Source: a virus
Lineage: Duplodnaviria > Caudoviricetes
DNA: 40,979 bases
Strand: one strand, 5' to 3'
Virus record (IMG/VR): IMGVR_UViG_3300038436_000256
Location: 1 to 40,979 of that record
The position numbers and the translations under genes were made by a program. How positions within the stretch are numbered: the stretch's first letter is position 1; each line of letters opens with the position of its first letter. Of the stretch, positions 2,908-34,295 are shown piece by piece. The notes under the pieces were generated by a model. That model saw only the letters and a program-made list of their open reading frames with translations, did not search any database and was not told where the DNA came from.

Positions 2908-3568
2908 ACCAGACAAAAAACGATTTGCGGAGATATTGACCGCAACCAGCGAGCTCTATGGTCGGACTATTTCCGTCCCGGCAATGCGGGTGTGGTTTGC
3001 CGCGCTTCTGCAATACGACATCAAGGATATCGTCGGTGCCGTACAGCGGCACATCACCTCACCAGATGGAAAATTCATGCCGGTCCCGGCGGACGTCATC
3101 CGGATTATTGAGGGGTCCGGGCAAGACGCCGCGCTGCTCGCCTGGACGAAGTTTACAGCGGCTCTGGAGCGAGTTGGCACATACCAGACGGTGGTGTTTG
3201 ATGATCCCATTATCCACACCGTTGTTGAGGATATGGGTGGGTGGGTGGAGTTCGGGGCCACTCCGATTGATGAGATGCGATTTCGCGGCATTGAATTTCA
3301 ACGACGATACCAGGCATACCGGCAGCGGATTGGGGAGCTACAGTATCCGGCGAAGCTGATTGGGATTACCGAGGCAGACAATCGGCAGAGGGGGTACATC
3401 GAGGATATTCCTGCGCCGCTCCTGATCGGAGACCACGAGAAAGCGCGGCAGGTTATGCTGGCTGGCTCGTCAGAGTCTAGGCTCAAGATATCGACCATCG
3501 GGGAGGCGGCTGTCAAGCTGTTGGCCGAAACAATTCCCCTGGAAGGTGAGAAGGAGAAGGCCGCATGA
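2900..3568 (+). CDS. replication-associated protein (helicase-loader-like, DUF6475-type C-terminus)
   Basis: Follows the initiator; FMPVPADVI and VVFDDPIIH..V..MGGW motifs. Confidence 0.6.
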   Translation: MVEPDKKRFAEILTATSELYGRTISVPAMRVWFAALLQYDIKDIVGAVQRHITSPDGKFMPVPADVIRIIEGSGQDAALLAWTKFTAALERVGTYQTVVFDDPIIHTVVEDMGGWVEFGATPIDEMRFRGIEFQRRYQAYRQRIGELQYPAKLIGITEADNRQRGYIEDIPAPLLIGDHEKARQVMLAGSSESRLKISTIGEAAVKLLAETIPLEGEKEKAA

Positions 3569-3771
3569 CCATCCCTCACGAACATGCCGAGGTCCGCCGC
3601 CGAGCCAGGGAGCAGAAGCGGAAAGACCTGTTCGCACTGATCACAAAACACCTGGATAGGGCCAAGGTTGACGGCACAGCCCCTGATATTTTGGTATCGG
3701 TTAAAGTGTCGCGGGATGGGGGAATTAAAGAGGTTGAGGTGAGGAGTATTGTGCGGGACGCGATCTTATAA
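3565..3771 (+). CDS. hypothetical protein
   Basis: ATGA overlap, AAGGAG RBS. Confidence 0.55.
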   Translation: MTIPHEHAEVRRRAREQKRKDLFALITKHLDRAKVDGTAPDILVSVKVSRDGGIKEVEVRSIVRDAIL

Positions 3772-3779
3772 TTTTTATT

Positions 3780-3808
3780 TTGACAAATTATTGATTCCGT
3801 CCGATAAT
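3780..3808 (+). promoter_or_regulatory. sigma70-type promoter upstream of the packaging/head operon
   Basis: TTGACA(3780-85)-N17-GATAAT(3803-08) with AT-rich upstream tract. Confidence 0.7.
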
Positions 3809-3824
3809 TAAGCAGACAAGTATA

Positions 3825-3855
3825 GTCGCCCCAAAAGCGGGGCGCGGATTGAAGT
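3825..3855 (+). CRISPR. solitary type I-C-like CRISPR repeat unit (not an array)
   Basis: GTCGCCCCAAAAGCGGGGCGCGGATTGAAGT: GTCGC start, CGCCCC/GGGGCG stem, GGATTGAA tail as in I-C repeats; only one copy seen. Confidence 0.6.
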
Positions 3856-3859
3856 AAAA

Positions 3860-3894
3860 CGGTTTCTGAAGCCGACCCCGAAAGGGATTGCGGC
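3860..3894 (+). promoter_or_regulatory. conserved leader RNA motif, copy A
   Basis: CGGTTTCTGAA then GCCG-AC-CCC-GAAA-GGG-ATTG-CGGC; same architecture at 34158-34190. Confidence 0.6.
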
Positions 3895-3898
3895 ATAC

Positions 3899-3955
3899 AG
3901 CCCGGTTATCTCCCAGCAATTTCAGCTGAGGGGGTGGCCGGGCTTTCGTCGTTTT
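3899..3955 (+). terminator. long hairpin / probable intrinsic terminator in the leader
   Basis: AGCCCGGTTATCTCCCAGC (3899-3917) pairs with GCTGAGGGGGTGGCCGGGCT (3925-3944), including G-U pairs; followed by TTCGTCGTTTT. Confidence 0.6.
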
Positions 3956-3966
3956 AGGGGTTTAGG

Positions 3967-4584
3967 TTGGCCGGTAAGCGCAAAGAAATTGACTGGGAAA
4001 AAGGCGACAAGCTGATCCGTCTAGGCCAGTTGTCTGCTGCAGAGATCGGCAGGCAACTGGGCTGCCCGACCAGTACCGTTACCCGGCGCATCAAAACGAA
4101 AGGGATCACAAGGGACAAGTCCGAAGAGGTTAAGACAAGGACGCGGGCCGCGCTCATCTCGAAAAATCTGCCTCAGCAACGCAACGCAACGCAACGCGAA
4201 ATTGCGGAGGTCGAAGAGCAGGACATTGACGAGGCCGTGAACACAAACGTTGCGCTGGTTCTGTCCCACCGCAACGACATTCAAAAACTCGCAACAGTGG
4301 AACAAAAAATTCTTGCTGAGTTGGGAGATGAAGACTCCCCGCCCACGAAACTTTACCTCGCAAACTATAAGGGGCAAGTGATTGGAAAAGAGGTTGGGTT
4401 GACGGTCACGGAAAAGTCCGCAGCATTGAGTAATTTGGCAAGCGTACAGCACAGGCGAATACAGCTTGAGCGCCAAGCGTTTGGGCTTGACGGTGAAGAG
4501 GGTGGCGATGCGGATAAACAGGAAATCAACATCACCAACAATGTTATTGAGCGCCGCATCGAGCCGAAAGAGGTTGCATCATGA
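3967..4584 (+). CDS. terS: terminase small subunit
   Basis: N-terminal HTH (LSAAEIGRQLGCPTSTVTRRIK), C-terminal RIQLERQAFGLD; overlaps terL; TTG start. Confidence 0.75.
   Translation: MAGKRKEIDWEKGDKLIRLGQLSAAEIGRQLGCPTSTVTRRIKTKGITRDKSEEVKTRTRAALISKNLPQQRNATQREIAEVEEQDIDEAVNTNVALVLSHRNDIQKLATVEQKILAELGDEDSPPTKLYLANYKGQVIGKEVGLTVTEKSAALSNLASVQHRRIQLERQAFGLDGEEGGDADKQEINITNNVIERRIEPKEVAS
4176..4197 (+). repeat. (GCAAC)4 pentanucleotide simple repeat
   Basis: gcaacgcaacgcaacgcaacgc inside terS. Confidence 0.8.
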
Positions 4585-11290: not shown

Positions 11291-11902
11291 TCATGTATCG
11301 GGTGTGCGGTACTTTGGTTGTTTAGAGGTGAAGAAGTAATGTTCCCACTTGTAACGGTAGCAGCCAACAGGCGGATGGCCGATCCAATTCAGGAACGCAG
11401 GTATGCTGTTTTTGGATACGGTTATTTTCCCGTCTCGTGCGGCTCTACTTTTGAAGCCGATTTTCCTGAGTTGTTCAGAAAGAAACTCGCGGCTTGTGGG
11501 ATCGAAAGAGTGGGCGCAAAGACAGATTTGTCTCAGGTATCCCTTGTCGGTGTCAAAACCGCCGTCTCCACAGTACCAAAGATTGACGGTGCGTGGGCTA
11601 AGGGTAATATCCTTGGGCAAAACCTTTTTGCCAAATGGATACCAACGGGTGAAGAAATCACAAAGGTTTGGGGATACATGGCTAAAAGTTTGGTAGGTAT
11701 AGCCAGTCCCATACCCATTAGGTTTTGTGTGGGTAGGCCCAAATTGCAATCCAAATTCAGTAAGTACTTTCTGAATCCAAGCATTAAATTCTATGTGTTT
11801 GCAATTGTGACCAAACCGGGGGAAGCTTGTTATGCCGAGATGCTTCCCCCTGTGTTGAAGGCTGCTGTCACCAAGAAGCAGTCCGTCCATGGTGTCTTTC
11901 AT
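11291..11902 (-). CDS. LAGLIDADG homing endonuclease (two-motif), antisense within the intron
   Basis: MDGLLLGDSSL and LWYCGDGGF motifs, WYPFGKKVLP; GGAGAG RBS 5 nt before ATG 11902. Confidence 0.88.
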   Translation of the reverse strand: MKDTMDGLLLGDSSLQHRGKHLGITSFPRFGHNCKHIEFNAWIQKVLTEFGLQFGPTHTKPNGYGTGYTYQTFSHVSPNLCDFFTRWYPFGKKVLPKDITLSPRTVNLWYCGDGGFDTDKGYLRQICLCAHSFDPTSREFLSEQLRKIGFKSRAARDGKITVSKNSIPAFLNWIGHPPVGCYRYKWEHYFFTSKQPKYRTPDT

Positions 11903-11932
11903 TCTCACTCTCCAATGTATTCGCTTTTACCA

Positions 11933-11961
11933 ATACTACACCGAATAACAACCAAAGTCAA
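11933..11961 (-). promoter_or_regulatory. sigma70-type promoter for the LAGLIDADG gene
   Basis: minus strand TTGACT(11961-56)-N17-TAGTAT(11938-33). Confidence 0.65.
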
Positions 11962-12119
11962 CACCCAGATGGGCAATCAGCAGCCAAGCACCGTACAGGT
12001 GAAGGTTCAACGGCCAGGGGACATACCCCGTAGGGTCCAAGCGGACCCGAAGCGCGAGGCGGCGCAGAGAATCGCGTCGAAGATATGGTCTACACTGCAC
12101 GGAAACGCGCAGCGGATTC

Positions 12120-12148
12120 TTGACGATTCAGGGATTAAATGGTATTAC
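12120..12148 (+). promoter_or_regulatory. candidate promoter for the intron HNH gene
   Basis: TTGACG(12120-25)-N17-TATTAC with TG extension; -10 imperfect. Confidence 0.45.
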
Positions 12149-12178
12149 CAATGCAGCAACATAGCTATGGAGGATACC

Positions 12179-12673
12179 ATGAAAATTACGCTTGAAGTCG
12201 TTGAGAGGTTTCACGAAAAATGGGTTGTCAACAAAGAGAATGGTTGCTGGGAATGGACTGCCTCATTAGCCGGTAAAGGTTACGGGCAGATGAAGGTCCC
12301 GGGAACAAGACGGCAGGAATACGCCCACAGGATATCGTACATGATTCACTGCGGGAATATACCTGGCGACATGCAGGTATGCCATACATGCGACAACCCT
12401 AAATGTGTAAAGCCAAGCCACCTTTTTCTCGGAACGAGTGGTGACAACCACTTGGACATGAAGGAGAAGGATCGGCACCTTAATGGCGAGAGAAACAAGA
12501 AGGCCAAGCTCACGGAAGAACAGGTCCGGCGCATCCACGAGTTGCATTCGCAAGGGATGTCGCAAGGGAAAATTGGCGAGGCTTTCGGCGTTTCTCAAGG
12601 GCAGGTGTTCAGGATACTACACGGTATCCAGTGGCAACACATTTATCGTGAAATCAAATCGGGCAGGTTGTAG
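12179..12673 (+). CDS. HNH homing endonuclease with C-terminal HTH, in the 3' part of the intron
   Basis: CWEW...GYG...AHRISY...VCHTCDNPKCVKPSHLFLGT..DN; HTH SQGKIGEAFGVSQGQV; GGAGGA RBS at 12169-74. Confidence 0.9.
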   Translation: MKITLEVVERFHEKWVVNKENGCWEWTASLAGKGYGQMKVPGTRRQEYAHRISYMIHCGNIPGDMQVCHTCDNPKCVKPSHLFLGTSGDNHLDMKEKDRHLNGERNKKAKLTEEQVRRIHELHSQGMSQGKIGEAFGVSQGQVFRILHGIQWQHIYREIKSGRL

Positions 12674-23993: not shown

Positions 23994-26900
23994 ATGGGCA
24001 TCCTTGACGACGAGCTGGGGATTGATCCTTTCGACGGCGGATCATCCGGTCCGGATAGTGAGCCGCTGTTTGCCCTGGACCGGGAGCTGGCCGGGTACGA
24101 CTTTGAGGATGGCGCGGAAGAGGATTCCGGCGACTTCCTTCGGGGCGTCTCGACCACCTTCAAGCAGGTGCCTCAACTCCTGCGCGGGGTCGAGGCAGGG
24201 ATAGGCGCGGCCGGTGAAAAGCTGTTCGGCGAGGGCGGAGACTGGACGAACATCAAGAAGGCTGGGGTTGCCGGGTATCTGGACTGGAGCGAACGTATCG
24301 CCAAGGACGCCAAGCTCTCGGACAATCTTGATTACTCCTGGGGCAGGGCGAAAGATGGCGACTTGGGGGCGCTGATTGATTGGCTGCAGTACGGGGCCGG
24401 GTACACCGTTGGCCAGGGCGCACAGATTCTCGCCACGGGCGGGGCCGGTTCGCTCATCGGGAAGACCGCCCTCAAGGGTGGGGTTGAAAACCTTGCCGCC
24501 GGGATGGTGAAAAAGGAAATGGCCACACTGGCCGGGTCAAAACTTGCCGGCGGGCTCGCGGCGGAAGAGCTTGCAAAGCTGGCTGTCAGTAATGTTGCCT
24601 CGAAGATCGGGCAGACAACGACCATGGCCCTTACCGCCACCGGGATGGAAGGCGGCGAGATATTTGGTGGCCTGGTCTCCGGCACTGAGAAGGAAGGCCG
24701 GACACCGACCGGGAGTGAACTGGCACTGGCCTTCGGGTCCACTCTGGCTGCCGGCGGACTGGAGTTTGTCGGGGATAAGCTGGGCCTGGACCTGATGCTT
24801 GGCAAGTCCAAGGTATTCAGCCCTGCAAAGACAATGACTGGAGTTGCCGGACGAGCTGGCCGGGCCGGACTGGGTATGGCTGCGGCCGCTCCGGTAGAGG
24901 CCGGGACGGAATATGCGCAGACCATGCTGGAGGAATTCGGCCAGGGCCGCGATCCGTGGAGCGAAGAATCAAGACGGCAGGCGTTCAACGCGGCAGGGCT
25001 CGGCGGGCTCGGCGGGGCGATGATCGGCGGTGGTGGCGGGCTCCTTTCCCCTGCAGATATCAAGACTGCCCTGGACGATTCCGGGCGGTTGTTGGATGAG
25101 GCTGACGCCCTGGACGAAACGGACATGCCCACGGTTGACGATGTGTTTGCCGCGCATGACAAGCGGACGACAGCGGCCGGGATCATGGACATCATCGAAA
25201 GGCCGACACCAGAGATTGATACCGTTGGCGAGGTGCTGGGCGACGACCTGCCGATTGACCAGCCGGGGATGAGCCGGGTTGAGCAGGTTGATCCCATTTC
25301 CCCGCTTGTCAGACAGTGGGATGAATTCATTCAGAGACGGGAACAGAAGAAGGCTGAAGCCGTTGACCTGATGCCGGAAGAGTTGAGGCCGGTGATCGGG
25401 ACCATCGAGCGGCAATTGTCCGAGGGCGAAACCGGAATCCGGTTCCAGAAAGAGGACGGATCTTGGGACGGGGTGAAGTCCACAAACCCAGACTGGATCA
25501 AAAAGCCAGCCCTGGAGAAGTACGACCAGGTGAACGGGACAAGTCTCGCCAAACGCCTGAACAAGTTGAGTCTCAAAGCCACGATCAGCAAGGTCCGCCA
25601 GGGCAAGGAGCTTTCAATAGGGCAGGAAGAAATCTGGGAATACGTTCAGGATGTGGCCAGGACCACGGCTGACCCGGAAGTAGCGGCGGCCAGCGAATAC
25701 ACCAGGATCGAGAAGGAAGAGGGCATTGAACTTGAGGCCCCGCACAAGGTGGTTGTCGCCGACCTGAACGACGGGGATAAGGTTGTCGTTCACAAGAACG
25801 GAATCCCTGATGTGGTGACGGTGAAGGGTCGCGATGATGACGGGAATGTTGTCCTTGAGGATGGCAATGTTTTCCGGCTGGATGACTTCGACAAGCTGGA
25901 GATTTCCGGGATCAAGCGGGCACAGGAGGTTCAGCCCAAGGCAACCGAGGTCATCGAGGACCCGAAATCGATAGCGAGCGGCCAGGAAGTAAACACCTCT
26001 CCGTCAGAGTCGATGAAGGAGGCGGGAAACTACAAGAAGGCCCACGTTGCAGTTGACGGGCTCGATATTTCCATTGAAAACCCTGTTGGGTCCGTCAGGT
26101 CTGGAAAGGATAAAAACGGCAGGGAGTGGAGCCAGGAGATCAAGGCCGATTACGGGTACATCAAGGGGACCGTAGGCCACGACAAGGACCATGTTGATAT
26201 TTTCGTCAAGCCCGGATACCAGGGCGGGGCCAAGACCGTTCATGTCGTTAATCAGGTTGATCCGGAGACGGGGAAATTTGACGAGCACAAGGTTGTCCTC
26301 GGGGCCGGGTCGGCTGGTGAAGCTATGGAAACTTACCTGGCAAACTACGAGCCAGGCTGGGCCGGCGGAAAGAATGTCGTCGAGATGTCCACTGATCAGT
26401 TCAAAGAGTGGGCGAAGTCCGGCCAGGCGAAAAGGGGAGAGCTTCCTGGAAACGAACAAATTACCCCTTCTATTTCTCAGCCTAAAACGACAAACGAACC
26501 GACAAAACAGCCGGTCAATTTGCCGCAAGAATCCCCTGCAGCTCCCCCCATTGAGCAGCAGGGCGCGGGGCAGCCGGAAACTCCCTCTCCGGTTGTCCCT
26601 GCTTCTAAAGAACCGTGGCAGATGTCAAAAGATGAGTGGGCATCTGCCATTGAAAGCGGAAAGCCTGGAGCCTTTGCGACATCACGGCAAGAGGATTGGG
26701 GTAGCTTACGAGGACAGGGGAAGCGCAGTGGTAGTATGGTTAAGGGCTCGATGCGTGACTCTACCTTGCAGGGGAAAAGAAATTACACCGATATCGTTGG
26801 TAAATTGCCGAAAGAAGAACGTGCCGATGTTTATGCAACTCTTGGCGACGAGAATCATGTCCTGACACAATATGCCAAGGCCAGAAGCGGCGGATTGAAC

Positions 26901-29900
26901 CACGAAGCCGCGATTCTTCACGCAATATCTGTTACTGACAAAGATGTTGACGCGCACAAAAGAGTGGTCGAATTGGCGATTTCAGCGGGCAAGCCAGTAC
27001 CGCAAGCCATTTTAGATTCCTACCCCGACCTCCAGCGCAGAGAACCAGCGGAGAGCAAGCCGGAACCAGCAACCACACAGGGGGCCAGCAATGGGCAAGA
27101 AGGGCAAGGGAAGGGAGAGCTGCTGAAAGAAGAGAAGCCGTCTACCAAGGCGGCTCCAGCCTTCCCCATTTCCAAGCACGGCAGCGCGGCAATCCTCGTA
27201 TCCGGCAACCCTGACGATATCAAGGCCAAGCTGGCAGGTGCCGGTATAAAGGCCAAGGGCCGGGTAAAGAAAGGGCGCGGTATGCTGTTCCCGGTTGGGA
27301 TGGAAGGGGAGATCAGGGGGGCGCTTGAAAAGGAGGCTGATAAGACCGCCGGCACCCTCACCAACGAAGACGGAACGCCATTGGTTGTTTACCGTGGCGA
27401 CTCTCTTTCTCCTGGTTCATTAAAGCCTTCGACCGGCGGAGATTTAGGGACCGGGATATACCTGACGGAAGACAGGTCCACGGCTGAGTATTTCACCGAT
27501 GGAACCGACGAGAGCCATACCAAGGCATACAATATCAAGATGGGGAATCCATTCGGCCTCATGTCAAAAGCCCTTCCGAAAAGTAAAGGGTGGAAGGCGA
27601 TGATGAGGACTGTCCCGGAGGGATTGAATCGGGACAACCTTAGAAAGTGGGCAAAGAACGAACTTGACATCAAAAATACTTACGGGTTTCTTGCCAGGAG
27701 CTTCGGATTAACCCCGGACACCTTCAACGCCTTTCTTGAAAAGCATGGTTTCGATGGGATAATCAGCCAGGGCACAAGGGGCGTTTCTGAATACAGCCGG
27801 GAGTATGTTGTATTCTCTCCAGATCAGGTTGTGGCGGTACAGGATGATTCTGTTCAACGCGATACGGATGGAGTGGATACCGTGGAGCCAGCAGAAGTTG
27901 ATGCGGCGGCAACCACATTTGACAATGCCGCCGAAGGGGATATAATAAGTGAAGGAGGAATAGAATATGAAATATCAGAAATCAGATCCCCTGCCAGTGG
28001 TAAGCACCGGGCCGGTGGAAGTGCCATACCGGGTCAACTCGCCTTGTTTGAAAACAAGGAAATGCCGAAAGGCAAGCGGCAAAAATTCATTGAATCGTAC
28101 CCGGCTAAGATAGGAACATTCTATTCTGATTTTAAGAAAATAGAGAACGCCGAACAGGCCGCGCAGCTTGTTTCCCCTATAAGCTTTCGTTCGCAAGAGA
28201 CGTTTGCCGTTATTGCCCTTGACGCCGAAAAGCGCCCCATCTCAGTTCTTCAGCATTCAGTAGGGACAAATATAAGAAGCCAAGTCGCTCCAGGTTTGGC
28301 CGTTGGGTCAATCCTTAATACGAAAGGCGTTGATTCTGTTTGGCTTGTTCATAATCACCCGTCCGGGAATGCCACAAAAAGCGATGATGATACCAGGCTG
28401 ACCAGGCACTTTGAGAATGGGACAAGGGGGCTTGGAGTTACGGTAGTTGGCCATGTAATTGTTACTCCAAACGGGGAAGCTTCAGAGCTTGACAATCTTG
28501 GTAATTTCATCAGGACGTTCAGCATCACGGAGAAGTCGGGGAAGAATAATCCGGTTAAGGTAACCGACAGGCGGCTGAAGGGGGATAAGCACGAATACCT
28601 TGGAGGTGAGGAAATATCCTCGTCTCAGGAGGCAAGGGAGACGCTCGATAAATATTCACAAGGAAGGCCAGGGATATTGCTCTTGAACCCGCAGAACCGG
28701 CCTATCAGGTTCTTCAGTCTTCCCGTCTCAAAAATGGAACTGCTACGGGAGGACGGGAAACGCGGCGTAGCTGCTGAATTGTACAGATATTTTGATAAGC
28801 GCAATGCAGTTGCAGCGGCAATAGTCTCATTTGGAAGGAACGGGAGATACCCCCGCGCTGAACAGAATATCAGCAATTTTCTCCGTCAAGCCGGCGTGAC
28901 ATTGCTTGATATTATCGCAAACGGGAATTCTCTGGCAGATTTAGGGGAGATCAGAAATTTAGCCTCTCGCGGAGACTACGAAGGGAACCCATTTTACTCC
29001 AAATCCACCGTCGGCACCACGGACACCACCCCTGAACAGGTAACGGCAGAGCTGCGCGATTTCTTGGGGCAGGGCGAGCGTAATCTTTCCCGGGCCGGGA
29101 AGCTGGAGATTGTCAGGACCGGAATGGGATTGCCGGAGGCGGTGAGGCGCGGAGCTTTGTTCATGACGGCTTGGCACGTGATCCCGTCAACCTTTTTTGC
29201 TAACCGGGTAGGGGATTCCCCGCAAGTCAAAAGCCTTCCTGATGCTGTGATAACCGATGCCAAGCTGTTGGCTAATTTTGTTAATACTCATGCCTTCATC
29301 AAGAAGGGCCTTGACGGCTTCGATGTCCCAACGCAAAAAGCGCAACTCGGAAGAGTGCTTAGGCTTATCGAGAACGACGAGATTAGAAAGTCTGTTGTCG
29401 AGTCTATCCCTGTTGACATGATGGACATGCTCGCCGGTAAGGAGCTTACGCCCGAGGTGTTGCTCCATGATGTGTCGGTGTTCAGGGACTTGCTTTCCGT
29501 CGATGGTGATAATTTTGTAGCCCTTCCGGTTGATGTGGCCAGTAGACTTGCCAATATCGTAGCAATTGCGGGTGCAAAAAATTCTGTGCTGAGTCGATTT
29601 TATGTTGGAACTACATCGCTCAAAGGTGCGCCCGCAGACGGGGCAAATACAGGAGCGCCTTCTCTTTCTGCACTCGATAGAGCAGTGGAAGACCTTGACC
29701 CTAGCGGCCCGTTCATTGGCGATGCGCTTAACGGCTCCGCACTTCGAGCAGGTACCTTCAACCATGCTGACACCTCATTGTTTGATGATAATAACATTAT
29801 ACCAAAAAATGAGATTATTGCAACTAGTAAAATTTTCTCTGATGAAGATGTCCAGATAACCGCCCTCTATTCCAAGGACGGGTCAATTGTAGGCGCATAT

Positions 29901-32900
29901 TACCAAGGGAAAATCTACCTGGTAGCCGACCGCATGAAGCCCGGAGATGCCAAGTACGTCATGATCCACGAGGGCGCCCACGCTCTCCTTAAAGAAGACC
30001 CGCTTTTCTCCGACCAGAAGGGCCGTATCCTGGGCCGTTTCGTCTCGCTCAAGGGCAAGTCCGCCGCGGTTGATGCAGCATACTCAAGGGCAGAGAAGGC
30101 AAAGGGAAGGGTTGGCACACTGAATGAAGAGGCCCTGGCCTACTTCCTCCAGGAAAAGGCCAACCACAAGCACTCTATCTTCCGGCGGATCGTCGCGGCT
30201 ATCAAGTCGGCACTGGTCCGGCTGGGCGTGCCGGTGGACAAGCTGAACTTCCAGGAGGCTGATTTCGTCGCGCTCTTTGTTGGAGGCGTGAAAAGGTTTG
30301 CCCGCAATGTCCAGGTTGAGCAAGGGGAGTTTGCCGGGGAGGCTGAGGCGTCTTATTCCAAAGACGGCAAGCCCGTCCAGCGCGTCACCCCCGAAATGTT
30401 ACAATCCCCCGAGTTCAAGAAATGGCAGGGCGATTCAGCAATAAAGGATGTGGTCTGGCACGGGACCGACTCAAAGGGCTTCCTGCAAGACGGCTCTTGG
30501 ACCTTCGATTCGACCAAGGGCAAGAGCAAGCACCATTCGCCCCTCGCTGGCCTGGGGAACTTCTTCGCCCTGGACCGTACCGAGGCGGCAGGCTACGGCA
30601 GCAGAGGCGTGGTCAGGCCGTTTTATGTGTCGGTAGAAAATCCACTGCGGCTCAACTCCTACGATTCACGGCTGAATAACCTGAACACCAGGGAAGAGGC
30701 GGCAGCCTTCGCAAAACGGATGCAGGCGCGTGGACATGACGGGATAGTGCTGGAGGACCAGGGGCATGTTATCGTTTTCGACCCGGGCAATATCAAGTCG
30801 GCTGAGTTTAATACCGGGGAGTTCGACCGGGCGAATAAGGACGTGCGGTATTCCAGGCAGCAGTTTGAGGAAGATTTCGATGAGGACACGCGGGACGCGG
30901 CGAAGATCGTCAAGAACCGCACCCCGAAGAACGATATCACCGCGCTGGGGCAGATATTTTCTACCCCTGATTATCTGCTCAATGCAGACCCGGCAGGAAA
31001 GCGGCTCTTTGAGACGCAACCGGAGCGGCGGGACCGGCGGTTTGAACTGGAGAACGACATCTTTAACAAGACCGGCGAGAATACCGGGTTTGTCCACGAA
31101 ATGACCAAGCTGCGGAAAGAAGACCCGGCAGAGTACGAAAAGGCCAAGGACTATCTGCTCAAGACCGACAAGACCGGCGAGGCGTTCAGAATAAAGCAGT
31201 GGTCCGGGTACATTGTCAGGGGCCTTGACGGCAACGAGATCGACCGTACCGAGAAGTCGGAAGATGCCGATACCATCGCCAGGAAACAGTTTGAGACCGA
31301 GGCGGCCAGGAAGTACATCAAGCCCCTTCCCGTAGGTCTGGACCGGGTAAAGCGGTATCAGGTCGGCGACAGGATCGTTGACAACTACGATAAGGCCAGA
31401 GTGCTTTCCCGCGACATGGCCAGGGCCGACAAGACCTACATCGCCAGCTACAAAACCGAAAAGATCGAGCAGTGGGAACTGCACGACCCGAAGAAAAAGC
31501 TGGTCGGGACATTCAAGACGGAGCGTGAAGCGGTTGATGCCCTGGAACAGGCTGAACACGATTATCTATCAGGGAAGGGCTTCTCCTTCAAGGCTACCGG
31601 CGGGGTGCTGGCTTTCCGGCGGATGACCAACAGGGCTTTTGATCACCAGATAGCCGACCTGAAACAGATCATCGCCGAGTGCGAGAAGCTGAAGATCGAC
31701 CCGCCGACCGTGACCGTTGTCGATGAGTCGCGTCGCTGGGGGATATTCGGGCACGGGAAACGGGTAGGCGAATTCTCCACCAGGAAAGAGGCGGAAAACG
31801 CGGTCTACAGCCTTAAGAAAACCGATTTCGCGCAGTACAAGGGGTTGGAGGTCAGAAGGCAGCAGGACGCCGAAATAAAGAAGGAAACGACCCTGCAAGA
31901 CATCATGGCAATGATGGGTGAGCTGCGGGGCTCGTACTTCCCGAGGCAGAGGGAGGAGGGCCGGGTGATCCTGCGGGCGACGAAGGGCGAGAGCCGGATC
32001 ATGGAGAAGTTCGACTTCTACGCCATGGACCAGGAATATATCGACCCGGAGACAGGTGTGGTATCTGCCGCGAAAGTCAGGCAGGCCAGCAGCTTCATTA
32101 AAAATCTGTTCAACAGGATATCCGGACGCATACCGTTTGTCAAAACCCTGGAGAAGCGGGCGCGGCAGTTGGAGCGTGACGGCTACAAGATCAGCATCGA
32201 ACGTGATTCCTCCCTCCCGGAAACGGTGTTCGACCCGGCCGGCCTGATTGCCTCGATCAGCTCTTTGATGAATGAAGCGGTTGATCAGGTGAAGGATCAG
32301 GAACTCAGGGGCGCCGCCGCTCAGGAAGCGAATAAGATCATCCTCAACGGGCTGGCCGAACAGTTCAAGAAACGCGGGTTCCTTTCAGCCAGGATAGCCA
32401 GATCTGATGAATATTGGGAAGGGTTCGAGACTGACCCGCTCAAGGCTGGGACGCAGTACGCCAAAGGGCTGGCGGCCGGTATTGCCAAGCGCGAGACATC
32501 GCAAAAAATGGTGCTGATCATCACCGGGCGCGATGAGTCCTGGGATGACTGGAAAGCTGACAAGGAAGATCCGCAGTGGGAAGATTATCAGGAATTTGTC
32601 AGGAACAGGGCCATTGACCCGAAGCAGCAGGGCACTCTCTACAAGGAAGCGATCAGTTTCACCCGTGAGATGCTGAGAAACGACGAACAGGGCGACAGGA
32701 TCATGGGCACCTTGCGCGGGCTGGCCACGTTCAAGTTCTTGGGGTTCCGGGTAAGCTCGGCGGCGATCAACGCCACCAACATGGTCCAGGCTGTTCCGGC
32801 CACCATTTCCGCGCAGACCGGAGGGAGCATAGCGGCCGCCCTGAATGAGATCGGCAGGGCCGCCAGCATTTACGGCAAGTACCGACTCGGCAAGCTGACT

Positions 32901-34094
32901 GGAGCTGATCAAGCCATTATGGCCGACATTCACCAAAGGGGTTGGGTAGAGGCGCAGTTCAACCACGAAGCGGCCGACGCCCTGCGGAATAAGGTTGGTA
33001 ATCACATGGACACCTTCCTCGGCTGGTCAATGCTGATGTTCGGCGCGGTTGAAAAGGTGAACCGGGCGACCACCATCTTTGCCGCCTACAAGCAGTTCAA
33101 GAAACAGTTTCCGGAAATGGACCACGAAACGGCTATGGCCAAGGCCAAGCATGTTTCCGACCGGGCGCATGGCATTTACGACAAGAGCACGGCCCCGGCA
33201 TGGTCCAGGGGCGCGAACAACCCGGTAAAACTGCTCTACACCTTCGTCAAGTTCGGGCACAACTACTTGCTGAACACGGCGGAGATGATCGGCAAGGACC
33301 AATGGAAGCAGGCCGGGTACATGATCCTTTCCCCGGCGATCCTCGGCGGCATGGGTGCAAGTATTGCCACAAAAGCCCTGTTCCTGGCGCTCGGGCTTGG
33401 CAGTGACAGCGATGATCCGGAAGAGGAATTCTACGCCTGGGTGGAAGAGAAGTTCGGCAGCGATACGCTCCCCCGGCACGGCCTGGCCGGGTTGCTGGGC
33501 GTGAATATCAAGGGCAGTCTCCAGGTCAACAATCCATTCCCGACAAAGATTACCGAATTGTTCGGGGCACCCGGGGCGGTTATCTTCGACGCGGCCAAGG
33601 GGATGAAGCATCTGGGCCGGGGCGAGTTTTACAAGGCCGCTGAGGATATCATGCCGGCAGCGGTCGGCAATGTCTCCAAAGCGATCAGGGAACACCGGGA
33701 GGGCGTCACCACCGACAGTTCCACGCCGGTCTATTACGGTATGGAGCCTCTGAAGGGCACGGCGACCGAGGCGGCCATTCGCTTCCTGTCATTCAGCCCG
33801 TCCAGGATCAGCGCCGTTCGGGAAAAACAGTGGAGCGAGAAGAAAGTTGCCGGCAAGTTCGCTGATCGGAAAAGCGAAATCTATTCGCGGTTCAAACGGT
33901 TCTATCTGCGCCCGCCGGAAGATCAGGACAGCGGCGATTATGCGGAGCTGCTGAAGATGGTCGATGCCTTCAATGAAGATGTTTTTGCATCCGGCAGATA
34001 TGATATCAGCCCAATCACCGGGAAGAGCTTGACCTCTGCGATAAAGCAGTCGATGCGCCCTGGCAGGAGGGAGAGGATGCGAGAGTCGCAATAA
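23994..34094 (+). CDS. giant polyvalent virion/ejection protein (3366 aa)
   Basis: Gly/Ala-rich N-terminus; InPase-like domain (GNYKK.H...IENP.GS.RSG...YGYI...D.D.VD, ~26020-26420); ART-PolyVal-like (YRG...GTGIYLT...EYVVF, ~27370-27830); JAB/RadC (HNHPSG...S.DD, ~28140-28470); HExxH peptidase (IHEGAH, ~29965); second ART-like (WHGT...GNFFA...GHDGI...VFDP, ~30450-30850); helical C-terminus. Confidence 0.85.
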   Translation: MGILDDELGIDPFDGGSSGPDSEPLFALDRELAGYDFEDGAEEDSGDFLRGVSTTFKQVPQLLRGVEAGIGAAGEKLFGEGGDWTNIKKAGVAGYLDWSERIAKDAKLSDNLDYSWGRAKDGDLGALIDWLQYGAGYTVGQGAQILATGGAGSLIGKTALKGGVENLAAGMVKKEMATLAGSKLAGGLAAEELAKLAVSNVASKIGQTTTMALTATGMEGGEIFGGLVSGTEKEGRTPTGSELALAFGSTLAAGGLEFVGDKLGLDLMLGKSKVFSPAKTMTGVAGRAGRAGLGMAAAAPVEAGTEYAQTMLEEFGQGRDPWSEESRRQAFNAAGLGGLGGAMIGGGGGLLSPADIKTALDDSGRLLDEADALDETDMPTVDDVFAAHDKRTTAAGIMDIIERPTPEIDTVGEVLGDDLPIDQPGMSRVEQVDPISPLVRQWDEFIQRREQKKAEAVDLMPEELRPVIGTIERQLSEGETGIRFQKEDGSWDGVKSTNPDWIKKPALEKYDQVNGTSLAKRLNKLSLKATISKVRQGKELSIGQEEIWEYVQDVARTTADPEVAAASEYTRIEKEEGIELEAPHKVVVADLNDGDKVVVHKNGIPDVVTVKGRDDDGNVVLEDGNVFRLDDFDKLEISGIKRAQEVQPKATEVIEDPKSIASGQEVNTSPSESMKEAGNYKKAHVAVDGLDISIENPVGSVRSGKDKNGREWSQEIKADYGYIKGTVGHDKDHVDIFVKPGYQGGAKTVHVVNQVDPETGKFDEHKVVLGAGSAGEAMETYLANYEPGWAGGKNVVEMSTDQFKEWAKSGQAKRGELPGNEQITPSISQPKTTNEPTKQPVNLPQESPAAPPIEQQGAGQPETPSPVVPASKEPWQMSKDEWASAIESGKPGAFATSRQEDWGSLRGQGKRSGSMVKGSMRDSTLQGKRNYTDIVGKLPKEERADVYATLGDENHVLTQYAKARSGGLNHEAAILHAISVTDKDVDAHKRVVELAISAGKPVPQAILDSYPDLQRREPAESKPEPATTQGASNGQEGQGKGELLKEEKPSTKAAPAFPISKHGSAAILVSGNPDDIKAKLAGAGIKAKGRVKKGRGMLFPVGMEGEIRGALEKEADKTAGTLTNEDGTPLVVYRGDSLSPGSLKPSTGGDLGTGIYLTEDRSTAEYFTDGTDESHTKAYNIKMGNPFGLMSKALPKSKGWKAMMRTVPEGLNRDNLRKWAKNELDIKNTYGFLARSFGLTPDTFNAFLEKHGFDGIISQGTRGVSEYSREYVVFSPDQVVAVQDDSVQRDTDGVDTVEPAEVDAAATTFDNAAEGDIISEGGIEYEISEIRSPASGKHRAGGSAIPGQLALFENKEMPKGKRQKFIESYPAKIGTFYSDFKKIENAEQAAQLVSPISFRSQETFAVIALDAEKRPISVLQHSVGTNIRSQVAPGLAVGSILNTKGVDSVWLVHNHPSGNATKSDDDTRLTRHFENGTRGLGVTVVGHVIVTPNGEASELDNLGNFIRTFSITEKSGKNNPVKVTDRRLKGDKHEYLGGEEISSSQEARETLDKYSQGRPGILLLNPQNRPIRFFSLPVSKMELLREDGKRGVAAELYRYFDKRNAVAAAIVSFGRNGRYPRAEQNISNFLRQAGVTLLDIIANGNSLADLGEIRNLASRGDYEGNPFYSKSTVGTTDTTPEQVTAELRDFLGQGERNLSRAGKLEIVRTGMGLPEAVRRGALFMTAWHVIPSTFFANRVGDSPQVKSLPDAVITDAKLLANFVNTHAFIKKGLDGFDVPTQKAQLGRVLRLIENDEIRKSVVESIPVDMMDMLAGKELTPEVLLHDVSVFRDLLSVDGDNFVALPVDVASRLANIVAIAGAKNSVLSRFYVGTTSLKGAPADGANTGAPSLSALDRAVEDLDPSGPFIGDALNGSALRAGTFNHADTSLFDDNNIIPKNEIIATSKIFSDEDVQITALYSKDGSIVGAYYQGKIYLVADRMKPGDAKYVMIHEGAHALLKEDPLFSDQKGRILGRFVSLKGKSAAVDAAYSRAEKAKGRVGTLNEEALAYFLQEKANHKHSIFRRIVAAIKSALVRLGVPVDKLNFQEADFVALFVGGVKRFARNVQVEQGEFAGEAEASYSKDGKPVQRVTPEMLQSPEFKKWQGDSAIKDVVWHGTDSKGFLQDGSWTFDSTKGKSKHHSPLAGLGNFFALDRTEAAGYGSRGVVRPFYVSVENPLRLNSYDSRLNNLNTREEAAAFAKRMQARGHDGIVLEDQGHVIVFDPGNIKSAEFNTGEFDRANKDVRYSRQQFEEDFDEDTRDAAKIVKNRTPKNDITALGQIFSTPDYLLNADPAGKRLFETQPERRDRRFELENDIFNKTGENTGFVHEMTKLRKEDPAEYEKAKDYLLKTDKTGEAFRIKQWSGYIVRGLDGNEIDRTEKSEDADTIARKQFETEAARKYIKPLPVGLDRVKRYQVGDRIVDNYDKARVLSRDMARADKTYIASYKTEKIEQWELHDPKKKLVGTFKTEREAVDALEQAEHDYLSGKGFSFKATGGVLAFRRMTNRAFDHQIADLKQIIAECEKLKIDPPTVTVVDESRRWGIFGHGKRVGEFSTRKEAENAVYSLKKTDFAQYKGLEVRRQQDAEIKKETTLQDIMAMMGELRGSYFPRQREEGRVILRATKGESRIMEKFDFYAMDQEYIDPETGVVSAAKVRQASSFIKNLFNRISGRIPFVKTLEKRARQLERDGYKISIERDSSLPETVFDPAGLIASISSLMNEAVDQVKDQELRGAAAQEANKIILNGLAEQFKKRGFLSARIARSDEYWEGFETDPLKAGTQYAKGLAAGIAKRETSQKMVLIITGRDESWDDWKADKEDPQWEDYQEFVRNRAIDPKQQGTLYKEAISFTREMLRNDEQGDRIMGTLRGLATFKFLGFRVSSAAINATNMVQAVPATISAQTGGSIAAALNEIGRAASIYGKYRLGKLTGADQAIMADIHQRGWVEAQFNHEAADALRNKVGNHMDTFLGWSMLMFGAVEKVNRATTIFAAYKQFKKQFPEMDHETAMAKAKHVSDRAHGIYDKSTAPAWSRGANNPVKLLYTFVKFGHNYLLNTAEMIGKDQWKQAGYMILSPAILGGMGASIATKALFLALGLGSDSDDPEEEFYAWVEEKFGSDTLPRHGLAGLLGVNIKGSLQVNNPFPTKITELFGAPGAVIFDAAKGMKHLGRGEFYKAAEDIMPAAVGNVSKAIREHREGVTTDSSTPVYYGMEPLKGTATEAAIRFLSFSPSRISAVREKQWSEKKVAGKFADRKSEIYSRFKRFYLRPPEDQDSGDYAELLKMVDAFNEDVFASGRYDISPITGKSLTSAIKQSMRPGRRERMRESQ
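29187..29765 (-). CDS. HNH homing endonuclease nested antisense inside the giant gene
   Basis: Two CxxC...CxxxC Zn modules, GY...EHRHIME..LGR.L...EHVHHVNRDRLDNRLSNL core, C-terminal HTH; GAGGTG RBS 5 nt before ATG. Confidence 0.9.
   Translation of the reverse strand: MVEGTCSKCGAVKRIANERAARVKVFHCSIECRKRRRSCICPVCGRTFERCSSNIKSTQHRIFCTRNCYDIGKSTGHINRKGYKIITIDGKQVPEHRHIMEQHLGRKLLTGEHVHHVNRDRLDNRLSNLVVLDKPKHSSELRFLRWDIEAVKALLDEGMSINKISQQLGIGYHSIRKAFDLRGIPYPVSKKG
29796..29823 (-). promoter_or_regulatory. sigma70 extended -10 promoter for the nested HNH gene
   Basis: minus strand TTGCAA(29823-18)-N16-TATAAT(29801-796), preceded by TGG (TGn). Confidence 0.75.
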
Positions 34095-34100
34095 ATCAGT

Positions 34101-34129
34101 TTGACGAGGAAAGCTGTTTTTCATATAAT
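34101..34129 (+). promoter_or_regulatory. sigma70-type promoter of the second structural/lysis operon
   Basis: TTGACG(34101-06)-N17-TATAAT(34124-29). Confidence 0.8.
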
Positions 34130-34157
34130 GGAAGCAGCGAATAAATAATGGTTTCTC

Positions 34158-34190
34158 CGGTTTCCTGATCTACTCCGAAAGGAATTGAGA
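34158..34190 (+). promoter_or_regulatory. conserved leader RNA motif, copy B
   Basis: CGGTTTCCTGA then TCT-AC-TCC-GAAA-GGA-ATTG-AGA. Confidence 0.6.
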
Positions 34191-34243
34191 AAAGGCCCGG
34201 CAATGCGATAGGGAAAACCCCTGTCCTGTTGCCGGGCCTTTTT
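34190..34243 (+). terminator. long intrinsic terminator (possibly bidirectional)
   Basis: AAAAGGCCCGGCAA ... TTGCCGGGCCTTTTT with inner GATAGGG/CCCTGTC stem. Confidence 0.8.
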
Positions 34244-34295
34244 GCGTTTCAGGGCCTGTAGAAATTGGCATGAAAACGAAAGGAGGTTTTTGAGC

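What the first reader, a model, noticed from the sequence alone, without database searches (positions are those of the whole stretch)
3825..3894. Solitary type I-C CRISPR repeat directly behind a promoter: candidate RNA anti-CRISPR (Racr)
Seen: GTCGCCCCAAAAGCGGGGCGCGGATTGAAGT begins 16 nt after the -10 box. It keeps a CGCCCC/GGGGCG stem and an 11-nt tail CGGATTGAAGT. There is no second repeat or cas gene in the window. Known (recalled, not searched): I-C repeats have the form GTCGCCCCCCACGCGGGGGCGTGGATTGAAAC, Cas5c cuts at the stem base leaving an 11-nt handle, and phage solitary repeat units can act as Racrs. The sister leader at 34130-34190 lacks this element, so it is an add-on. Inference: a Cas5c/Cas7 decoy, or a site where host Cas processing affects the packaging-operon leader.
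Basis: partly seen in the sequence, partly recalled or inferred. Interest (0 to 1): 0.8.

Follow-up and report, generated by a model that had tools for sequence, protein, structure and literature searches.

The report
CRISPR repeat in phage packaging leader
A prophage carries one altered copy of a type I-C CRISPR repeat just behind the predicted promoter of its DNA-packaging genes, where related phages lack it; the short RNA predicted there would be cut by the host's Cas5c and likely acts as a decoy for CRISPR proteins, a known trick (RNA anti-CRISPR) in an unusual place.

Summary
The element is real and not chance. Bases 3825-3855 are a lone, diverged type I-C repeat: a model built from 17 real array repeats scores it 27.9 bits, against 9.3 for the next site in the window. 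It keeps the stem and the first nine handle bases that Cas5c reads. It differs in the loop and the last two bases, so it is only 73-81% like the array repeats held, below the published 90% cut-off.

It sits in a promoter-hairpin-terminator leader before the small terminase gene. The sister leader and three related phage leaders have the same layout, lack the repeat and are 22-29 nt shorter, so it is an insertion.

Best reading (0.45): the leader gives a short RNA that host Cas5c would cut into a blank-guide decoy. Rivals: a decaying relic (0.27) or a cis-acting processing site (0.15).

Not shown: host I-C system, expression, cleavage, any effect. No anti-CRISPR gene was recognised nearby, and no relative conserves the repeat. 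Lone viral I-C repeats are published; the setting is the new part.

The parts
3565..3771 (+). 68-aa ORF of unknown function just before the promoter; similar small ORFs precede the leaders of L011 and L221
   Evidence: 30% and 18% identity; no family over cut-off; ESM Atlas structure look-alikes are unnamed viral proteins
3780..3808 (+). Predicted sigma-70 promoter (TTGACA, 17 nt, GATAAT); start site inferred near 3815
   Evidence: near-identical promoter in L011, L115, L221
3825..3855 (+). Solitary diverged type I-C repeat: stem 3827-3832/3839-3844, loop 3833-3838, predicted Cas5c cut between 3844 and 3845, 11-nt handle 3845-3855
   Evidence: same 31-nt layout as the 115-copy array L153/L168, whose record encodes Cas5c
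3860..3868 (+). Conserved leader box (CGGTTTCTG), shared with repeat-less leaders
3871..3894 (+). Ancestral leader hairpin with GAAA loop and an internal loop; possible antitermination signal (inferred)
   Evidence: no Rfam family
3899..3955 (+). Long GC-rich hairpin 3899-3944 with an interrupted T-run; predicted intrinsic terminator, probably leaky
   Evidence: fold; related leaders have cleaner T-runs; not called by the simple terminator scan
3967..4584 (+). Terminase small subunit, first gene of the packaging and head operon
   Evidence: phrog_1206, E 2e-21
34101..34249 (+). Sister promoter-box-hairpin-terminator leader without the repeat (internal control)

Best explanation
A lone, diverged type I-C CRISPR repeat is inserted into the predicted promoter-terminator leader of this prophage's packaging operon, and the short leader RNA likely acts as an RNA decoy (Racr-like) that host Cas5c would cut and load. 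Shown: the repeat, its position, its absence from four matching leaders, and an intact stem and core handle. Inferred steps: (1) host RNA polymerase fires the near-consensus promoter, also in the lysogen, and mostly stops at the terminator, giving an RNA of about 135 nt, as lambdoid late leaders do; (2) the repeat hairpin folds first on the growing RNA; (3) Cas5c cuts at the stem base, leaving a 5' end at 3845; (4) the product has an 11-nt handle, 43 nt of phage leader and a 3' hairpin, so it looks like a crRNA without a target, binds Cas5c and Cas7 and lowers the pool for real crRNAs. This differs from RacrIF1, whose product lacks the handle.
For: Repeat identity; the repeat family lies beside cas5c in an annotated I-C locus, in record G001 and in 9 of 12 genomes that match the pattern. 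Against the 31-nt array repeat of L153, 23 of 25 bases outside the loop match, and all 7 differences lie in the loop (5) or the last two bases. Cas5c reads the cut site and the three bases behind it and tolerates loop changes (PMC8524198 passages). Cas7 holds the rest of the handle by backbone contacts (PMC7684278 passages). C at the first handle position is natural: 173 of 367 array copies. Insertion: 51 nt from -10 to the conserved box against 28, 29, 29 and 22 nt. Stem probability is about 1.0 for five of six pairs in RNA ending at 3870. Precedents: RacrIC1 inhibits I-C, and a non-targeting crRNA also lowers interference (PMC10651486 passages); always-on, terminated late leaders give functional small RNAs (PMC7547250 passages). 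Two unrelated phages also have a lone I-C repeat about 180 nt behind a phrog_36 regulator gene and upstream of terminase genes.
Against: Best identity to any of 14 array repeats is 81%, below the 90% that SRUFinder needs. It scores lower (27.9 bits) than 12 lone repeats picked for comparison (33.9-54.3) and not far above a probable chance hit inside an ORF (21.5). 535 of 538 array copies end AAAC or AAAT and none AAGT. Real repeats with a GAAG end are mostly last repeats of arrays or orphans, where the handle has no job. No relative keeps the repeat, so conservation gives no support. No acr or aca gene was recognised, though the record is only 49% complete. In RNA ending at 3900 or 3950 the stem probability falls to about 0.3-0.55, because it competes with the leader hairpin. 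The T-run is weak, so much RNA may read through. The host and its CRISPR type are unknown.
Confidence: 0.45

Rival explanations
1. Decaying relic. A repeat, possibly the last repeat of a host array, entered the leader by recombination or stray integration, is tolerated in a loosely constrained stretch and no longer does anything that matters.
For: Lowest model score among the lone repeats compared. GAAG ends mark terminal or orphan repeats (L239, L250, L263/L272). Found in one phage only. The stretch between +1 and the box varies freely among relatives. Earlier AI notes report lone repeats in mRNAs of bacteria that lack the matching Cas (unchecked).
Against: The differences avoid the stem and the first nine handle bases, although detection favours such copies and the host's own repeat is unknown. 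The copy is whole, on the sense strand and behind the strongest promoter match in the first 20 kb.
Confidence: 0.27
2. Cis-acting processing or sensing site. [quoted passage not shown] This would change read-through at the terminator or mRNA stability, and so tie packaging-gene expression to the host's Cas proteins.
For: The repeat lies 4 nt before the conserved box. Its stem competes with alternative folds of the downstream leader. This leader alone has a weakened T-run. Lone I-C repeats also lie between structural genes, on the sense strand, in other phages, e.g. between terS and terL in L140.
Against: The sister leader and relatives do without the repeat. A crude test for sense orientation over 40 lone repeats was not significant (upstream 16 against 10, p 0.33; downstream 19 against 10, p 0.14). 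No report of such control was found.
Confidence: 0.15
3. Guide-type regulatory RNA (Cracr/CreR-like). The bases behind the handle act as a short spacer that steers host Cascade to a cas promoter or to the phage's own DNA.
For: Handle, then 15 nt, then a hairpin resembles the layout of crRNA-like RNAs, and I-C Cracrs exist (bioRxiv 10.1101/2024.10.29.618823, abstract and section 7).
Against: The would-be spacer is the phage's ancestral leader box, not captured DNA. PAM-adjacent matches in the window are at chance level (7 found, 9.6 expected). The best seed match in 12 I-C cas loci of other organisms is 6 bases; the true host locus could not be tested.
Confidence: 0.05
4. Chance hairpin that only resembles a repeat.
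For: The tail plus GTCGC does arise by chance: 38 of 45 viral hits to a loose pattern have a stem of 5 pairs or fewer, and one full-stem hit lies in an ORF. Rfam gives only 15.9 bits against CRISPR-DR9, gathering score 45. The hairpin alone is not unusually stable (z -1.8).
Against: Model score 27.9 bits against at most 14.1 in 824 kb of related phage DNA. 0 of 300 shuffles give a GTCGC-starting match. The leader is longer than its relatives by about one repeat.
Confidence: 0.05

Closest known systems
RacrIC1 and viral solitary repeat units (Camara-Wilpert et al. 2023, PMC10651486; passages, sections 9, 11, 12 and supplements searched)
   Same: A single I-C-type repeat in an intergenic stretch of a prophage, with a promoter within 250 bp and no cas genes or second repeat.
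   Different: RacrIC1 lies 11 nt behind an acrIC5 gene in one transcript and was tested. This one lies in the leader of the packaging operon, has no recognised acr neighbour, is 81% or less like the repeats held, and its letters are not in the paper's 9 supplementary files.
RacrIF1 (same paper)
   Same: Host endonuclease processing and titration of Cas7 as the proposed principle.
   Different: RacrIF1 yields an RNA without a 5' handle and a Cas6f-Cas7f subcomplex. A Cas5c cut here would leave the handle on the downstream piece, so the product would resemble a non-targeting crRNA.
Cracr / crRNA-like RNAs (bioRxiv 10.1101/2024.10.29.618823; abstract and section 7)
   Same: Viral repeat-like RNA that competes for Cas proteins; I-C examples exist.
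   Different: Cracrs carry a spacer matching a cas promoter over 9 or more PAM-proximal bases. Here the downstream bases are ancestral phage leader, and no target was found.
Lambda 6S RNA and StxS, short RNAs of terminated late promoters (PMC7547250, passages)
   Same: Strong host-type promoter, short leader and terminator ahead of late genes; the paper proposes such leaders as free space for new small RNAs.
   Different: StxS is cut by RNase E and base-pairs with mRNAs. No Q-like antiterminator was recognised in this window, and constant firing and termination here are inferred, not shown.

Membership tests
Type I-C CRISPR repeat (derived copy) | GT start, GC-rich stem of 6-7 pairs, 11-nt 3' tail with GGATTGAA core | tested here: met
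   same 31-nt layout as array L153/L168 in a record with Cas5c
Type I-C CRISPR repeat (derived copy) | Tail ends in AAAC or AAAT | tested here: not met
   Ends AAGT; 535 of 538 array copies end AAAC/AAAT (arrays were fetched with patterns that require the GGATTGAA core)
Solitary repeat unit (SRUFinder definition) | Intergenic, on a mobile element, no second repeat within 100 bp | tested here: met
   Provirus record; between ORF end 3771 and terS 3967; no second model hit
Solitary repeat unit (SRUFinder definition) | At least 90% identity and coverage to a known repeat, bit score 41.1 or more | tested here: not met
   73-81% against 14 distinct array repeats; the full 17,823-repeat library was not available, so a closer repeat may exist; criteria
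Racr (RNA anti-CRISPR) | Promoter within 250 bp upstream | tested here: met
   11 of 12 consensus match ending 16 nt upstream; a prediction, not a mapped start
Racr (RNA anti-CRISPR) | Host encodes the matching CRISPR subtype | tested here: inconclusive
   Host DNA not held; named homologues hint at Desulfobacterota, where at least D. vulgaris has I-C with this repeat family
Racr (RNA anti-CRISPR) | Bound and processed by the host Cas endonuclease | not testable with these tools
   Only compatibility with published Cas5c determinants
Racr (RNA anti-CRISPR) | Lowers CRISPR interference in cells | not testable with these tools
   Needs a bench assay
Racr (RNA anti-CRISPR) | Often beside acr genes (enriched, not required) | tested here: not met
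   No Acr or Aca family among ORFs scanned; unknown small ORFs and the missing half of the provirus leave this open
Cracr / CreR-type guide RNA | Spacer matches a cas or toxin promoter over 9 or more PAM-proximal bases | tested here: inconclusive
   No match above chance in the window or in 12 foreign cas loci; host locus unavailable; PAM recalled
CRISPR mini-array | Two repeats around a spacer of 30-40 nt | tested here: not met
   No second repeat; the next hairpin starts 15 nt on and belongs to the shared leader motif

The most novel reading that the evidence does not exclude
Phage late leaders are recurrent landing sites for host CRISPR repeats, and here the phage uses host Cas5c and Cas7 as part of its own late-gene switch: cutting and coating the leader both drains Cascade and sets read-through into the packaging operon.
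Probability: 0.13. Interest if true: 0.75.

Novelty: new variant of a known kind. Interest (0 to 1): 0.42.

Why it matters
If the RNA works, a terminated late-leader RNA would give a prophage a constant anti-CRISPR decoy without a new gene or promoter. It would also show that repeats only about 80% like array repeats, which the published 90% search misses, can still be active, so the Racr catalogue would be undercounted. The locus is easy to test: about 180 bp, with four natural repeat-less leaders as controls. If it does nothing, it is one more lone viral repeat of a catalogued kind.

Tried and rejected
Host identity: only the 40,979-nt provirus record is held and no relatives are drawn for it. 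A GTDB scan with the terminase gave one distant locus (33%), so genomes of the likely host phylum were not sampled. The 301-genome sample is of that distant locus's phylum and serves only as a repeat source and chance control.

Host spacers or repeats in the sequencing runs: none among the 18 loose ends shown of 149. No RNA holder listed. 514 spacers from fetched arrays match the window at 74% at best.

Exact copies elsewhere: 0 in viral contigs for the element's stem with a GAAG end; no meaningful DNA match in annotated phages. A scan for the leader motif gave 3 hits, none in a recognisable leader.

Degenerate second repeat at 3871-3899: rejected, because the same hairpin is in the sister leader and the gap is only 15 nt. 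A 21.9-bit model hit in relative G004 lacks the tail and was rejected.

Promoter enrichment before lone repeats: 4 of 40 against 92 of 2120 random positions, not taken as evidence. Sense-strand bias not significant. Rfam: nothing at gathering score in 13 loci. ESM Atlas did not explain the 68-aa ORF. Shmakov et al. 2023 is not held and was not read; bioRxiv supplements were not seen and could list related elements.

Full report
Setting. The window is a whole provirus record of 40,979 nt, estimated 49% complete. It runs from replication genes through terminase, portal, capsid and tail genes to a lysis gene. Three of its proteins are on record on a 120,138-nt contig, which is not held. Two DNA runs of one study, labelled groundwater metagenome, hold the stretch; one may be its source, and the other covers 3431-3869 without a difference. 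The host is unknown. Named homologues are from a Deltaproteobacteria bacterium (terS, 42%), a Desulfobulbaceae bacterium (capsid, 66%) and Desulfobacter sp. (DUF6475 protein, 49%). Capsid hits at 63% also name Chloroflexi, Thiotrichales and Gammaproteobacteria, so Desulfobacterota is a hint only.

The observation. The element is at 3825-3855, 16 nt behind a TTGACA-17-GATAAT promoter match. I collected real arrays rather than rely on recall. A viral scan for the stem and core tail gave 69 loci. An annotated D. vulgaris plasmid places this repeat family beside cas3, cas5c, cas8c and cas7c. Among 301 sampled genomes 12 match the pattern, and 9 of those 12 encode Cas5c. The array of L153/L168 (115 copies, Cas5c in the same record) has the same 31-nt layout: 6-pair stem, 6-nt loop, tail starting CGG. 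The element matches it at 24 of 31 bases and at 23 of 25 outside the loop. Over 14 distinct array repeats identity is 73-81%.

Chance. A covariance model from 17 array repeats scores the element 27.9 bits, rough E 1.1e-5; the next site in the window scores 9.3. The best score in 100 related phage loci (824,191 bases) is 14.1, and in 30 metagenome loci 16.1. Shuffles and reversed patterns agree. Against this, 12 lone repeats that I picked from the scans score 33.9-54.3, and a probable chance hit within an ORF scores 21.5. Rfam gives only 15.9 bits. So the element is CRISPR-derived but strongly diverged.

It is an insertion. I printed the DNA upstream of 33 of the 110 terS-relative loci. L011 (terS 69% identical) and L115 have nearly the same promoter, a conserved CGG-N-TYCTG-like box, a small hairpin and a GC-rich terminator hairpin with a T-run. 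L012, L091 and L017 show more distant versions. L221, found through the upstream DUF6475 gene (74%), has the same leader, as does the sister leader at 34101-34249. None holds the repeat. The distance from the -10 box to the conserved box is 51 nt here and 28, 29, 29 and 22 nt in the sister, L011, L115 and L221. Bases 3856-3894 of the finding are therefore ancestral leader, not a captured spacer. The leader has no Rfam family. The simple terminator scan did not call its hairpin; the terminator rests on folding and on the relatives, and this copy's T-run is interrupted.

Where the changes fall. For B. halodurans Cas5c, recognition centres on the cut site and the three bases behind it and not on the loop; S. 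mutans Cas5c is more tolerant still (PMC8524198, passages). In D. vulgaris Cascade, Cas5c grips the start of the handle and Cas7 makes non-specific backbone contacts (PMC7684278, passages). The element's changes are in the loop and at handle positions 10-11, so cleavage at 3844/3845 is plausible but untested. The end is unusual: 535 of 538 array copies end AAAC or AAAT. A looser scan for a GAAG end gave 45 viral loci; 7 have a stem of 6 or more pairs. Of these, three are last repeats of arrays (L239, L263, L272), two are lone repeats (L250, L261), one is doubtful (L267) and one lies in an ORF (L234). One internal array variant was found in a bacterial genome. Such ends thus mark copies whose handle is not in use as a normal crRNA, which fits a decoy and a relic equally. 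Folding: five of six stem pairs have probability about 1.0 in RNA ending at 3870, 0.3-0.55 in RNA ending at 3900 or 3950, and 0.9 or more when it ends at 3957.

Mechanism. Lambdoid late promoters fire constantly and are terminated in the lysogen, and the short RNA can gain a function (PMC7547250, passages). By analogy (inferred) this leader gives about 135 nt. A Cas5c cut would leave an 11-nt handle, 43 nt and a 3' hairpin, close to a crRNA with no target. RacrIC1 inhibits I-C, and a non-targeting crRNA also weakens interference (PMC10651486, passages). I put this decoy reading at 0.45, a relic at 0.27, cis control of the late transcript at 0.15, a guide RNA at 0.05 and chance at 0.05. The guide reading fails so far: matches in the window are at chance level and at most 6 seed bases in 12 foreign cas loci (PAM recalled).

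How common. Of the 69 loci, 40 are non-redundant lone repeats after dropping 17 with several matches, 6 with a nearby partial repeat, 5 duplicates and 1 at an edge. One of them, L162, is in the published SRU list; the element's letters are in none of the 9 supplementary files. Several lie among head or tail genes. L123 and L261 lie about 180 nt behind a phrog_36 'transcriptional regulator' gene with terminase genes further down; that this family is a late activator is recalled, and enrichment was not tested. Neither promoter proximity (4 of 40 against 92 of 2120) nor sense orientation (p 0.33 and 0.14) was significant.

Novelty. Lone viral repeats and an I-C Racr are published. I found no report of one inside a terminated late leader: searches (listings only) and the parts of PMC10651486 and the Cracr preprint that I read. 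Shmakov et al. 2023 was not held, Faure et al. 2019 is recalled only, and bioRxiv supplements were not seen. Earlier AI notes of this scan describe similar lone repeats in phage and host leaders; they are unchecked leads, and some raise the relic and cis rivals. Verdict: observation confirmed, origin secure, function open; a variant of a known kind, interest 0.42.

Noticed in passing
window 3780-3955 and 34101-34249; L011 2160-2325; L115 766-930; L221 5826-5970: A shared phage leader motif (near-consensus promoter, CGG-N-TYCTG-like box, small hairpin, long terminator hairpin) with no Rfam family; twice in this phage and before terS in relatives. It may be an undescribed antitermination element.
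   Followed up: partly
window 3565-3771; L011 1720-1941; L221 5618-5812: A small ORF of about 65-73 aa recurs shortly before this leader in related phages; no family. A candidate regulator of the leader.
   Followed up: partly
L291 1847-1880; L290 733-764: Two unrelated phages have a lone I-C repeat about 180 nt behind a phrog_36 regulator and upstream of terminase genes; the L291 copy also ends GAAGT.
   Followed up: partly
L142 1499-1530 (minus strand): Promoter match, 10 nt, I-C repeat, about 30 nt whose start resembles the element's own -10 region, then a hairpin with a T-run: looks like a self-regulating crRNA-like RNA.
   Followed up: no
L250 1501-1532 and L239 1501-1532 (same record): A lone repeat behind an AT-rich stretch lies about 2 kb from an array with the same repeat, and both are followed by similar DNA: an emptied or duplicated array end.
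   Followed up: no
window 27919-27969: A perfect TTGACA-16-TATAAT match inside the 3366-aa ORF, followed by GGAGG and an ATG at 27967 that is out of frame with the large ORF: a possible nested short gene or internal promoter.
   Followed up: no
window 23994-34094: 3366-aa polyvalent protein with InPase, RadC-like and ART-PolyVal domains, DarB-like in PHROGs.
   Followed up: no
window 11318-12673: A 451-aa HNH endonuclease gene sits directly behind the major capsid gene.
   Followed up: no
window base 1: A contig of run X1 extends 12,977 nt upstream of the window, where early genes and any acr genes could lie.
   Followed up: no
G096:C206:3017-3045: A copy with the 6-pair-stem layout lies on a different contig from the listed array copies of this bacterial genome and differs from them.
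   Followed up: no
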